63,061 nt of DNA from a virus (IMGVR_UViG_3300026546_000003:1-63061); one strand, 5' to 3'; positions 61,840 through 63,021 are shown, counted from the first letter of the stretch. Program-made: numbers and translations. The notes: generated by a model not told the origin, from the letters alone.

Positions 61840-62079
61840 TTATTTTTTATACTCTAGCTCCATAATAAGTTCAATATAATGGATAGCTTTTTTCAAATCT
61901 TCTATCCCATTTTTGTCTCTATGGCGCACAACATATTTAATTACATTTGACTCACAGAATGGCAACTTATTAACTTGGCAAAATTCTACTGGTTGGATTT
62001 TGAAAGATTTATAATGGTCTCCACCTTCTTGTTTCTCTAAGGCGCAGGAAGAGACATAAATGGCAGGTTCTTCAGGCAT
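61840..62079 (-). CDS. DUF3310 protein (T7 gp1.7-like nucleotide kinase family)
   Basis: GGDHY...IQPVEF...NVIKYVVRH..KNGIEDLKKAIHY. Confidence 0.88.
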   Translation of the reverse strand: MPEEPAIYVSSCALEKQEGGDHYKSFKIQPVEFCQVNKLPFCESNVIKYVVRHRDKNGIEDLKKAIHYIELIMELEYKK

Positions 62080-62100
62080 TTAGTTATCTCCTAGTAAATT

Positions 62101-62181
62101 TGGTGGAGCTGGTGGGAATCGAACCCACGTCCTACTAAATGCGCATCGGCTTTAATAGCAGTCGAAACCATTCACAGCCCC
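62101..62181 (-). ncRNA. Mini-tmRNA: tmRNA tRNA-like domain lacking the mRNA-like domain
   Basis: GGGGCUG-UGAAUGGUUUCGA-CUGCUA-[18 nt]-UAGUAG-GAC-GUGGG-UUCGAUU-CCCAC-CAGCUCC-ACCA; G3:U70 pair, stemless D-loop, no anticodon loop. Confidence 0.8.
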
Positions 62182-62193
62182 ATATATTGTATT

Positions 62194-62269
62194 TGGTGGT
62201 TCCTGGTAGAGTTGAACTACCGACGCAGAGATTTTCAGTCTCTCGCTCTACCTCCTGAGCTAAGGAACC
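62194..62269 (-). tRNA. tRNA-Phe(GAA)
   Basis: Full cloverleaf, AGAGA-CTGAAAA-TCTCT, encoded CCA. Confidence 0.95.
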
Positions 62270-62277
62270 GTAGTTTT

Positions 62278-62354
62278 TGGTACCCCCAGCAGGACTCAAA
62301 CCTGCGACCTATGGTTTAGAAGACCATTGCTCTATTCAACTGAGCTATAGGGGC
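62278..62354 (-). tRNA. tRNA-Arg(UCU)
   Basis: Cloverleaf, ATGGT-CTTCTAA-ACCAT, encoded CCA; T-loop TTTGAGT. Confidence 0.93.
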
Positions 62355-62360
62355 ATAATG

Positions 62361-62451
62361 TGGAGGAGGGTAAGAGATTCGAACTCTTAACTCCTTTTAC
62401 AGAGTAGACGGTTTTCAAGACCGACTGACTTTCCCCACTGTCCAACCCTCC
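62361..62451 (-). tRNA. tRNA-Ser(UGA)
   Basis: Long variable arm, CGGT-CTTGAAA-ACCG, encoded CCA. Confidence 0.9.
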
Positions 62452-62595
62452 TTATCTTAAAAGTTCTGCAAAAACAGATGCAAATAATATAAGACTTACA
62501 CCAGCATTTAAGCCTGATAAAAACATAAAATTATTCATAAACATTGTACAACTAACTATAGCATTAAGAATAGCAAATAACAGTACAATAGCCAT
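62452..62595 (-). CDS. 47-aa two-TM membrane peptide
   Basis: MAIVLLFAILNAIVSCTMF...; AAGGA RBS; fills the gap between tRNAs. Confidence 0.55.
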   Translation of the reverse strand: MAIVLLFAILNAIVSCTMFMNNFMFLSGLNAGVSLILFASVFAELLR

Positions 62596-62615
62596 AATCT
62601 TATCCTTTTTTATTT

Positions 62616-62689
62616 TGGCAGGGCGACTCCGAATCGAACAGAGAACAAAGGTTTTGGAGACCCTTATTTTACCATTAAACTACCGCCCC
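62616..62689 (-). tRNA. tRNA-Trp(CCA)
   Basis: Cloverleaf, AGGGT-CTCCAAA-ACCTT, encoded CCA. Confidence 0.92.
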
Positions 62690-62698
62690 ATAATGATT

Positions 62699-62773
62699 TG
62701 GTGGAGAGTACGGGAATCGAACCCGTAGTCATAGCGTGCAAAGCTATTGGTTTCCCAGTTAACCGAACTCCCC
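62699..62773 (-). tRNA. tRNA-Ala(UGC)
   Basis: G3:U70, ATAGC-TTTGCAC-GCTAT, encoded CCA. Confidence 0.93.
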
Positions 62774-62929
62774 TTAAATAATTTCCCAGGCACTTGTAGT
62801 TTTATACCAATCTGGCCCATATTTACGAGCTTTTTTATGGTAACGCCGCTTATTCCACTTAGTCCATTTTGCAAATTTTCTAGTTTTACACCTATATCGT
62901 TTAGCAATAGCATATGATTTCTTTTTCAT
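62774..62929 (-). CDS. 51-aa highly basic peptide
   Basis: MKKKSYAIAKRYRCKTRKFAKWTKWNKRRYHKKARKYGPDWYKTTSAWEII; AAGGAG RBS; fills the gap between tRNA-Asp and tRNA-Ala. Confidence 0.65.
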   Translation of the reverse strand: MKKKSYAIAKRYRCKTRKFAKWTKWNKRRYHKKARKYGPDWYKTTSAWEII

Positions 62930-62946
62930 GCTAAACTCCTTAGTAA

Positions 62947-63021
62947 TGGCGGCCCATAGGAGAATTGAACTCCTGTTACTAGGTTGACAACCTAGCGTTC
63001 TTACCGTTGAACTAATGGGCC
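62947..63021 (-). tRNA. tRNA-Asp(GUC)
   Basis: Cloverleaf, CTAGG-TTGTCAA-CCTAG, encoded CCA. Confidence 0.95.

What the first reader, a model, noticed from the sequence alone, without database searches (positions are those of the whole stretch)
62101..62181. Phage-encoded mini-tmRNA: complete tRNA-like domain with no tag-coding domain
Seen in sequence: the last RNA of the tRNA array (minus strand, 81 nt) reads GGGGCUG UGAAUGGUUUCGA CUGCUA UUAAAGCCGAUGCGCAUU UAGUAG GAC GUGGG UUCGAUU CCCAC CAGCUCC ACCA. It has an alanine acceptor stem with G3:U70 and discriminator A, a D-loop without a D-stem ending GGUUUCGAC, a helix 2a (CUGCUA/UAGUAG), the 3-nt GAC linker, a perfect T-arm and encoded CCA. Established knowledge: these are the hallmark 5' and 3' ends of bacterial tmRNA (ssrA) and form the SmpB-binding surface. 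The ~250-300 nt of pseudoknots and tag ORF are replaced here by an 18-nt loop. TLD-only tmRNAs are known to me from some protist mitochondria but not as a described phage system. A normal tRNA-Ala(UGC) lies ~500 nt upstream, so this RNA is not needed to decode alanine. Inference: it may be alanylated and (a) sequester host SmpB/EF-Tu to block trans-translation, or (b) accept nascent chains from stalled ribosomes without adding a degradation tag. Either could counter host defences that cleave mRNA or tRNA.
Basis: partly seen in the sequence, partly recalled or inferred. Interest (0 to 1): 0.92.

Follow-up and report, generated by a model that had tools for sequence, protein, structure and literature searches.

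The report
Phage tmRNA reduced to tRNA-like domain
This uncultured phage carries an 81-base RNA gene that keeps only the alanine-accepting, tRNA-like end of the bacterial ribosome-rescue RNA (tmRNA) and has lost the tag-coding part; one such phage RNA was already published, but many phage genomes turn out to carry similar ones.

Summary
Window 62101-62181 (-) reads exactly as reported and matches Rfam tmRNA RF00023 end to end at 75.3 bits (cut-off 47). Only 14 nt stand where the model has 308 positions of pseudoknots and tag frame. ARAGORN calls neither a tRNA nor a tmRNA there.

It is not a new kind. Mycobacteriophage DS6A has a published "TLD only" tmRNA (passages). My covariance model scores DS6A and the window alike, at 67.1 and 66.8 bits.

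It is also not rare. Their helices covary strongly. G3:U70 with A73 was kept in 111 of 115 sequences found without constraining the acceptor stem.

Most likely mechanism, inferred: host AlaRS charges it, host SmpB binds it, and it competes with host tmRNA on stalled ribosomes, so rescue proceeds without the SsrA tag. A pure SmpB sponge is the main rival. Expression, charging and binding are untested.

Verdict: new member of a known kind, with unreported breadth.

The parts
62101..62181 (-). TLD-only tmRNA (mini-tmRNA), 81 nt with encoded CCA
   Evidence: Rfam RF00023 at 75.3 bits over model positions 1-374. Own model R1 at 66.8 bits.
62175..62181 (-). Acceptor stem, 5' strand (RNA positions 1-7, GGGGCUG), including G3 of the G3:U70 alanine identity pair
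   Evidence: Sequence. In alignment A3 this helix is paired in 99.7% of cells and G:U stands at pair 3 in 94 of 96 rows, but G3:U70 was imposed by the pattern that collected those rows. The unconstrained test is, where G3:U70 with A73 is kept in 111 of 115 sequences.
62162..62174 (-). D region without a D stem (positions 8-20, UGAAUGGUUUCGA). G19 and A20 form the non-standard G.A/A.G pairs with A52 and G51.
   Evidence: Rfam alignment, NC line marks these pairs 'vv'. G13, G14 and U16-A20 are invariant in A1, though the search pattern required them.
62156..62161 (-). Helix 2a, 5' strand (positions 21-26, CUGCUA)
   Evidence: Rfam alignment. All 6 pairs of this helix change on both sides across the family.
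62138..62155 (-). 18-nt cap (positions 27-44, UUAAAGCCGAUGCGCAUU) in place of the pseudoknots and tag frame
   Evidence: 14 nt replace 308 model positions. There is no GCN...stop frame inside it. A29 and C33 are at least 90% conserved in A1.
62132..62137 (-). Helix 2a, 3' strand (positions 45-50, UAGUAG)
   Evidence: Contigs of public runs show variants at 62134 and 62135.
62129..62131 (-). G51 A52 C53 junction ('GAC')
   Evidence: A52 is invariant and G50 and C53 are at least 90% conserved in A1, although the pattern did not require them.
62112..62128 (-). T arm (positions 54-70, GUGGG UUCGAUU CCCAC)
   Evidence: The T stem is paired in 100% of cells, and 3 of its 5 pairs change on both sides.
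62101..62111 (-). Acceptor stem 3' strand (CAGCUCC), discriminator A and CCA
   Evidence: A73 with G3:U70 is kept in 111 of 115 sequences found without constraining the acceptor.
62194..63021 (-). Array of six ordinary tRNA genes upstream on the same strand: Asp-GUC, Ala-UGC, Trp-CCA, Ser-UGA, Arg-UCU, Phe-GAA
   Evidence: ARAGORN. Rfam calls five of them as tRNA; the Ser gene appears only below threshold, as tRNA-Sec.
61840..62079 (-). First protein gene after the RNA (79 aa, DUF3310). Its start codon lies 21 nt after the CCA and is preceded by AGGAG.
   Evidence: Pfam PF11753, E 2.7e-12.

Best explanation
The gene encodes a tmRNA reduced to its tRNA-like domain (TLD). Its identity is close to certain (about 0.95). 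The rest is inferred.

The RNA is probably transcribed with the tRNA array that heads the minus-strand replication module, and cut out by the host's tRNA-processing enzymes. Host AlaRS would charge it through G3:U70 and A73. Host SmpB would bind it at the D-loop and GAC junction. EF-Tu would deliver it to ribosomes stalled on broken mRNAs.

There it would compete with the host's full-length tmRNA and accept the nascent chain. It has no resume codon, tag frame or stop codon. The chain would therefore get alanine, or perhaps several alanines through repeated rounds, instead of the SsrA degradation tag. The phage would in this way uncouple ribosome rescue from SsrA tagging during infection.

The stated confidence is for this whole mechanism.
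For: Identity:
- Rfam tmRNA at 75.3 bits, with no tRNA or tmRNA call by ARAGORN.
- My model R1 gives the window 66.8 bits and the published TLD-only RNA of DS6A 67.1 bits, against at most 30.3 bits for ordinary tRNAs.

Selection on the RNA:
- 92 TLD-only forms were aligned with 4 other matches.
- 97.4% of cells are paired, against 69.5% in shuffles (0 of 500 shuffles reach it).
- The covariation score is 0.642, against 0.07-0.09 when partners are slid.
- All 6 pairs of helix 2a change on both sides.

Charging seems to matter. A scan anchored only on the D-loop, GGAC and T-loop left the acceptor stem free. It gave 115 unique sequences. G3:U70 with A73 is kept in 111 of them, and 109 of those also have at least 6 of 7 acceptor pairs. 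Positions 4-7 covary freely.

The SmpB-side junction is conserved where the pattern did not require it: A52 invariant, and C21, G50 and C53 at least 90%.

The phage must use host factors. The 63-kb record has no SmpB, Pth or RF-1-domain gene.

There is no tag frame. The window's cap has no GCN...stop. Only 34 of 176 forms have one, fewer than the 34% seen in shuffles.

Published work on engineered equivalents (review PMC3929946, passages):
- A TLD fragment made of the 5' 25 and 3' 34 residues joined by a loop binds SmpB in crystals.
- A TLD fragment with SmpB supports polyalanine synthesis without mRNA.

A pure poison is unlikely. Bacterial chromosomes keep such genes beside a full-length ssrA in 4 of 4 genomes tested. 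In Poribacteria the neighbouring gene is conserved in 18 of 21 loci.
Against: - Nothing shows that this RNA is made, charged or bound. No RNA run holds the locus.
- The only experiment on such a molecule reached me through citing passages alone. [quoted passage not shown]
- After transfer to a TLD-only RNA the ribosome has no stop codon, so release would need another factor. No such factor is encoded near these genes: a tblastn with one SmpB, one Pth and one RF query found nothing in 188 viral loci plus the window (1.67 Mb in the loci), though single-query sensitivity is limited.
- The benefit to a phage is not established.
- The host is unknown, so compatibility with its SmpB and AlaRS cannot be judged.
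- Alignment A3 was fitted to the model's structure, which favours pairing. The slid-partner control and the separate parse, which did not use that alignment, soften this concern.
Confidence: 0.45

Rival explanations
1. Pure SmpB sponge. The RNA works off the ribosome by sequestering host SmpB, and perhaps AlaRS or EF-Tu. This shuts down trans-translation as a whole. Charging and peptidyl transfer are irrelevant.
For: Hudson et al. [quoted passage not shown] 2009 (passages). The 2025 database paper repeats that it inhibits the endogenous tmRNA in E. coli. The SmpB-contacting D-loop and GAC junction is conserved. No phage SmpB gene is present.
Against: A sponge does not need alanine identity, yet G3:U70 with A73 is kept in 111 of 115 sequences found without constraining the acceptor stem. 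Bacteria keep such genes beside their own full-length ssrA, which is odd for a simple inhibitor. I could not read Mao et al. 2009 (not held).
Confidence: 0.27
2. Decoy for host RNases or defence nucleases. A ready-made tmRNA fragment binds RNase R, or nucleases recruited by type III CRISPR or other RNA-targeting defences, and so blunts them.
For: The AcrIIIA1 paper (PMC11662646, passages) reports that a staphylococcal phage anti-CRISPR protein carries t(m)RNA fragments, with the main tmRNA fragments about 90 nt long. These fragments bind RNase R stably and co-purify with Cas10-Csm during infection. The paper also notes that tmRNA-SmpB regulates RNase R.
Against: No AcrIIIA1-like partner or any other conserved neighbour exists: the largest neighbour cluster is in 11 of 129 dereplicated viral loci (the window, scanned with them, belongs to none of the 25 largest clusters), and the top clusters are capsid, portal, protease and similar genes. 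This reading does not explain the strict conservation of the alanine identity set and the SmpB junction. The link is by analogy only.
Confidence: 0.07
3. Non-functional remnant or artefact: a decayed tmRNA gene, an attachment-site fragment of host ssrA, a degenerate tRNA-Ala, or a misassembly.
For: Some phage matches to the 3' half are of this kind. In Gordonia phages Ruthy and Yeezy the match lies beside the tyrosine integrase and scores only 23-30 bits with R1. The single-sequence fold is only z = -2.11.
Against: Both gene ends are present and paired, and no tyrosine integrase is in the record. Family-wide compensatory changes show purifying selection. One 185-nt contig of a public run spans 62097-62269 with no gaps and 7 differences, although that run may be the source sample. 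A Christensenella genome's mini differs from its own ssrA in the acceptor stem, so it is not a recent deletion copy. ARAGORN finds no tRNA at its default or 90% threshold.
Confidence: 0.03
4. Processing signal only. The tRNA-like fold serves as an RNase P/RNase Z cleavage site that separates the tRNA array from the downstream mRNA, and the released RNA has no role.
For: It is the last RNA before the first protein gene, whose start codon follows 21 nt later. In one relative (L078) a Pistol self-cleaving ribozyme lies about 100 nt upstream, which shows that processing elements occur there.
Against: Any tRNA would serve this purpose. It does not explain the tmRNA-specific D-loop and GAC junction or the alanine identity. 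44 of 60 loci examined have no tRNA call at all near the RNA and one more has only a call overlapping the RNA itself, so it is usually not part of an array.
Confidence: 0.04

Closest known systems
TLD-only tmRNA of mycobacteriophage DS6A (tmRNA Website entry; Mao et al. 2009, as cited in PMC4131195 and PMC11915505)
   Same: Both are phage-encoded, in the standard gene order, about 80 nt long, with acceptor stem, D-loop, helix 2a, a short cap and T arm. Both have an A-rich stretch followed by a small hairpin in the cap. R1 scores are equal: DS6A 67.1 bits, window 66.8 bits.
   Different: DS6A is a temperate actinophage of high G+C. Its RNA stands alone upstream of a DNA pol III gene, has a GGUGGUCGAC D-loop and no encoded CCA, and does not reach Rfam's cut-off. 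The window's RNA is in a 33% G+C phage with no integrase found, ends a tRNA array, encodes CCA, and scores 75.3 bits in Rfam.
Canonical bacterial tmRNA (SsrA, Rfam RF00023)
   Same: The whole tRNA-like domain is shared: acceptor stem with G3:U70, A73 and CCA, D-loop GGNUUCGAC, tandem G.A pairs, helix 2a and T arm.
   Different: The window's RNA has no pseudoknots, resume codon, tag frame or stop codon; 14 nt stand for 308 model positions. It cannot complete trans-translation as known.
CDS-less organellar tmRNAs (jakobid mitochondria, Mallomonadaceae plastids)
   Same: They are natural tmRNAs without a tag frame, about 65 bp in the plastid cases, thought to act with SmpB (PMC11915505, passages).
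   Different: They are organellar genes that are the only tmRNA of their compartment. Here the RNA enters a cell that has its own full-length tmRNA. I did not test similarity to the mitochondrial model; it did not appear in the E-value scan.
Engineered TLD fragments used in structural and in vitro work
   Same: The design is nearly the same as the short natural forms of 61-68 nt: 5' 25 and 3' 34 residues joined by a loop. They bind SmpB, and with SmpB they support polyalanine synthesis without mRNA (PMC3929946, passages).
   Different: They are laboratory constructs from Thermus and E. coli tmRNA. The natural 76-86-nt class, which includes the window's RNA, has an extra conserved A-rich stretch and small hairpin in the cap.
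Full-length and two-piece phage tmRNAs (mycobacteriophage PegLeg; Melnitz-like marine myophages)
   Same: They are phage-borne ssrA genes, often beside tRNA genes. PegLeg's 403-nt tmRNA lies between tRNA genes. ARAGORN finds tmRNA genes in 402 of 18,146 phage genomes (PMC9004378, passages).
   Different: Those keep the tag frame. ARAGORN does not detect the TLD-only forms: in 60 loci it called 0 correctly and 4 wrongly. Such censuses therefore miss them.

Membership tests
tmRNA (Rfam RF00023), tRNA-like domain | Score at or above the curated gathering cut-off, and best within the tRNA clan | tested here: met
   75.3 bits against 47, E 1.8e-27, model positions 1-374. Lower-scoring clan matches were dropped.
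tmRNA (Rfam RF00023), tRNA-like domain | 7-bp acceptor stem with G3:U70, discriminator A and a 3' CCA (alanine identity) | tested here: met
   Read directly from the sequence. Actual charging is not testable here.
tmRNA (Rfam RF00023), tRNA-like domain | D-loop without a D stem (GGNUUCGAC), tandem non-standard G.A pairs, helix 2a and the GAC junction | tested here: met
   Rfam alignment with 'vv' marks at G19/A20 and G51/A52. Helix 2a covaries in the family.
Canonical tmRNA (complete SsrA) | mRNA-like domain with resume codon, tag reading frame and stop codon, flanked by pseudoknots | tested here: not met
   14 nt replace 308 model positions. ARAGORN finds no tag peptide. No GCN...stop frame is in the cap.
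TLD-only tmRNA (DS6A type) | One continuous RNA under 100 nt, in standard order, in which helix 2a is capped directly | tested here: met
   81 nt. R1 gives 66.8 bits for the window and 67.1 for DS6A, with ordinary tRNAs at or below 30.3.
TLD-only tmRNA (DS6A type) | Encoded by a phage | tested here: met
   The record holds head, tail, DNA polymerase, primase, helicase and RNR genes and is a virus record.
TLD-only tmRNA (DS6A type) | Inhibits host tmRNA function when expressed | not testable with these tools
   Known only from citing passages about the DS6A-like molecule. The primary paper is not held.
Ordinary tRNA-Ala or pseudo-tRNA | Cloverleaf with a D stem and an anticodon arm bearing a 7-nt loop | tested here: not met
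   ARAGORN makes no call at its default or 90% threshold, and at 80% calls a 'tRNA-???' with a 2-nt anticodon. The real tRNA-Ala of the window scores 26.6 bits with R1, against 66.8 for this RNA.
Two-piece (permuted) tmRNA (RF04321) | Acceptor piece encoded upstream of the coding piece, with the TLD formed by two RNAs | tested here: not met
   Only 22.5-22.6 bits against a cut-off of 47, and not at the full locus. The TLD here is one continuous strand.
Mitochondrial tmRNA (RF02544) | Match to the mitochondrial TLD-only model | tested here: inconclusive
   It is not listed in the E-value scan, but weaker matches of the same clan are hidden by the tool.

The most novel reading that the evidence does not exclude
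TLD-only tmRNAs are not a DS6A oddity. They would be a widespread, almost unannotated class of small RNAs in phages of many hosts, and in some bacteria as conserved chromosomal genes beside the normal ssrA (for example Poribacteria). Together with host SmpB they would form a minimal, template-free system: it takes over stalled ribosomes and adds alanine or oligo-alanine instead of the SsrA tag. Phages would use it to handle the flood of broken mRNAs during infection or under RNA-cleaving defences.
Probability: 0.2. Interest if true: 0.8.

Novelty: new member of a known kind. Interest (0 to 1): 0.55.

Why it matters
It is still unsettled what a tmRNA without its message does, both for jakobid mitochondria and for the single published phage case.

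This window shows that the form is not confined to one mycobacteriophage. It is a diverse family under clear selection, it keeps its alanine identity, and standard annotation does not see it: ARAGORN misses or miscalls it, and the DS6A record does not annotate it.

That offers many natural variants for testing whether such RNAs block trans-translation, replace it with an untagged or alanine-tail rescue, or act as decoys. It also means that censuses of phage tmRNA genes undercount.

Tried and rejected
Searches for relatives of this phage:
- A near-identity search of 2 kb around the locus in the phage collection found no match.
- A tblastn of the 563-aa ORF found none.
- The DNA polymerase is at most about 32% identical to T5-like and Vibrio phage polymerases, so no host could be inferred.
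- The DnaB-like helicase as query gave one 4.6-kb viral contig that stops before the array (L179) and one 2.2-kb metagenome contig (L181).

Expression and assembly:
- No RNA holder was listed for the locus.
- The runs laid were contigs only and are fragmented across the array.

Cultured phages that matched the 3' half:
- Ruthy and Yeezy matches lie beside an integrase and look like attachment sites.
- Rb1 and SM1 score only 29-35 bits.
- In cr50_1 the match lies near the 5' end of a 496-nt annotated tmRNA and scores only 23.6 bits with R1.
- None is a clear TLD-only form.

Searches for a partner protein:
- Clustering of ORFs within 4 kb in 129 dereplicated loci found no cluster in more than 11 loci.
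- A tblastn with one SmpB, one Pth and one RF query found nothing in 188 viral loci plus the window, 1.67 Mb in the loci. Sensitivity is low.

Methods set aside:
- The MAFFT alignment A1 misaligned the 5' ends, so I did not use it for pair counts.
- The single-sequence MFE and centroid folds give other helix registers.

Tools and papers:
- Mao et al. 2009 is not held.
- Supplementary tables of the tmRNA database papers were not seen. They may list further phage TLD-only entries.

Full report
**1. The observation**

Rfam's tmRNA model RF00023 matches it from model position 1 to 374 at 75.3 bits (gathering score 47, E 1.8e-27). The alignment shows these parts:
- the 7-bp acceptor stem;
- the D region GGUUUCGAC;
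- the two non-standard G.A pairs;
- helix 2a, CUGCUA/UAGUAG;
- the junction and the T arm;
- ACCA at the 3' end.

Only 14 nt stand where the model has 308 positions. Overlapping matches of one clan are reduced to the best, so the tRNA model scored lower here.

ARAGORN calls six ordinary tRNA genes upstream on the same strand: Asp, Ala-UGC, Trp, Ser, Arg and Phe. It calls nothing at this place. With its threshold lowered to 80% it reports a 'tRNA-???' with a two-base anticodon.

A pattern of the conserved letters matches once in the window and in none of 100 shuffles.

The single-sequence fold is only modestly better than shuffles (z = -2.11) and prefers another register for the central helix.

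**2. Surroundings**

The window is a whole virus record of 63,061 bases, linear and estimated 55% complete.
- G+C content is about 33%.
- A structural module lies on the plus strand.
- A replication module lies on the minus strand: RNR, an SbcC-like protein, helicases, a family A DNA polymerase, primase and a DnaB-like helicase.
- The tRNA array and this RNA lie at the 5' end of the minus-strand module.
- The next gene, a DUF3310 protein, starts 21 nt after the CCA.

No SmpB, peptidyl-tRNA hydrolase, RF-1-domain or tyrosine integrase gene is in the record.

The nearest cultured phages share only about 32% identity in the polymerase. The host is unknown.

**3. A family, not a singleton**

The scans:
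- A strict pattern found 4 further viral contigs.
- A third pattern left the acceptor stem free.
- A scan of one genome for each of 185,579 species gave 49 hits.
- In all I hold 175 distinct forms besides the window's.
- The subclass with the window's acceptor stem, counted in full, has 60 viral contigs and 29 distinct sequences.

Model and covariation:
- I built covariance model R1 from 28 sequences.
- R1 scores all 92 forms searched at 43.4-95.5 bits. Ordinary tRNAs and the 3' end of a full-length phage tmRNA score at most 30.3 bits.
- On the resulting alignment 97.4% of cells are paired, against 69.5% in shuffles (0 of 500 shuffles reach it).
- The covariation score is 0.642, against 0.07-0.09 when partners are slid.
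- All six pairs of helix 2a change on both sides. The alignment was fitted to the model, which favours pairing.

As an independent check, Rfam's curated model of 19 sampled loci as tmRNA at 51.6-79.5 bits. The exception is DS6A.

**4. What is conserved without being imposed**

The first scans required GGGG...CUCCA, so G3:U70 was built in.

The third scan constrained only the D-loop, GGAC and the T-loop. Of its 115 distinct sequences:
- 111 keep G3:U70 with A73;
- 109 of those also have at least 6 of 7 acceptor pairs;
- positions 4-7 vary with compensating changes.

Conversely, the junction was not required by the first relaxed pattern. There A52 is invariant, and C21, G50 and C53 are at least 90% conserved.

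No tag frame is conserved. 34 of 176 forms contain any GCN...stop frame in the middle region, fewer than the 34% in shuffles, and the window's form contains none.

**5. Context across the family**

Among 60 loci, ARAGORN found neighbouring tRNA genes in 15, some of them arrays of up to 28 genes. In one further locus its only call overlaps the RNA itself (a miscall as tRNA-Glu), and in 44 it called no tRNA. It miscalled three of the RNAs as long tmRNAs with odd tags. Rfam prefers the short form in the two of these loci that I checked (L078 and L015).

No protein gene is linked to the RNA. The largest neighbour cluster occurs in 11 of 129 dereplicated viral loci (the window, scanned with them, belongs to none of the 25 largest clusters). 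The top clusters are prohead protease, capsid, WhiB, portal, a DnaB-like protein and endonuclease VII.

A tblastn with single SmpB, Pth and RF queries found nothing in 188 viral loci plus the window, 1.67 Mb in the loci.

**6. Comparison with what is known**

Hudson, Lau and Williams 2014 list 'Mycobacterium phage DS6A (TLD only)'. [quoted passage not shown] 2009 (passages).

The 2025 tmRNA database paper screened RefSeq viruses. It names DS6A as the phage case, alongside CDS-less plastid and mitochondrial forms (passages).

I located the DS6A RNA at JN698994 28478-28560. It is unannotated in the record, scores 67.1 bits with R1, and has the same cap design as the 76-86-nt class.

My literature searches found no other phage case and no survey of this breadth. 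Two gaps remain: the primary 2009 paper is not held, and supplementary tables were not seen.

**7. Mechanism**

What is shown for engineered equivalents (review PMC3929946, passages):
- TLD fragments bind SmpB in crystals.
- Together with SmpB they mimic a whole tRNA.
- With SmpB they support polyalanine synthesis without mRNA.

What is inferred for this RNA: processing from the array transcript, alanylation, SmpB binding, EF-Tu delivery, competition with host tmRNA, and acceptance of the nascent chain without a tag.

I prefer this reading to a pure SmpB sponge for two reasons:
- The alanine identity set is under selection.
- Bacteria keep such genes beside their own full-length ssrA in 4 of 4 genomes tested. 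In Poribacteria the same neighbour gene is present in 18 of 21 loci.

The sponge reading keeps the only experimental support, and I know that support only second hand.

A decoy role towards RNase R or defence nucleases rests on analogy with AcrIIIA1-bound t(m)RNA fragments (passages).

Remnant, attachment-site or artefact readings are largely excluded.

**8. Verdict**

The finding is real. The RNA is a new member of a known kind, TLD-only phage tmRNA, in a very different phage and in a tRNA array.

Noticed in passing
L130-L178 (genome contigs); for example L149 4650-4732 and L143 3025-3107: 21 Candidatus Poribacteria genomes carry a conserved TLD-only tmRNA of about 83 nt, without encoded CCA, on the chromosome. 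In 18 of 21 loci it lies next to a PLP-dependent decarboxylase gene. Two of two genomes tested also have a full-length tmRNA elsewhere, at 177-185 bits. It looks like a vertically inherited second, tagless tmRNA gene.
   Followed up: partly
L134, L142, L157 (Nostoc); L162, L167, L250 (Christensenella MAGs); L067 (viral contig): Three Nostoc genomes share one TLD-only form. Two Christensenella MAGs carry a form identical to that of viral contig L067, inside a tRNA array, so it is probably a prophage. In the one Christensenella genome checked (G004) and the one Nostoc genome checked, a full-length tmRNA is also present. In G004 the full-length gene has a different acceptor stem from the short form.
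   Followed up: partly
L078 6093-6154 (-): A Pistol self-cleaving ribozyme (Rfam RF02679, 51.9 bits, cut-off 34.5) lies about 100 nt upstream of the TLD-only tmRNA of this viral contig.
   Followed up: no
L128/L129 (JN698994, phage DS6A) 28478-28560: The published TLD-only tmRNA of DS6A is not annotated in the GenBank record and does not reach Rfam's gathering score. It lies just upstream of gp34 (DNA pol III). The phage also encodes an RtcB-like RNA ligase, gp76.
   Followed up: partly
L078, L015, L045, L077: ARAGORN miscalls TLD-only forms. Three are called as tmRNAs of 324-343 nt with unlikely tag peptides, and one as a 91-nt tRNA-Glu. Rfam prefers the short form in L078 and L015, the two I checked.
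   Followed up: yes
window 62138-62155 (-) and alignments A1, A2: The 76-86-nt class shares an A-rich stretch (UAAAR) followed by CC and a small 3-bp hairpin in the cap. A29 and C33 are at least 90% conserved. From recall, this resembles the 5' strand of helix 2b of full-length tmRNA. Its role is unexplained.
   Followed up: partly
window 62452-62595 (-) and 62774-62929 (-): Two small ORFs sit between the tRNA genes, each behind a Shine-Dalgarno-like sequence. One is a 47-aa hydrophobic peptide and the other a 51-aa Lys/Arg-rich peptide.
   Followed up: no
window 62134-62135: Contigs of two public runs carry A>G and C>A here, in the 3' strand of helix 2a. The array region is assembled in many short variant contigs, which suggests several related phage strains. 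I could not see whether the partner bases change too.
   Followed up: no
window 62364-62452 (-): The tRNA-Ser(UGA) gene appears in the E-value scan only as a sub-threshold tRNA-Sec match (40 bits, cut-off 47). ARAGORN calls it tRNA-Ser.
   Followed up: no
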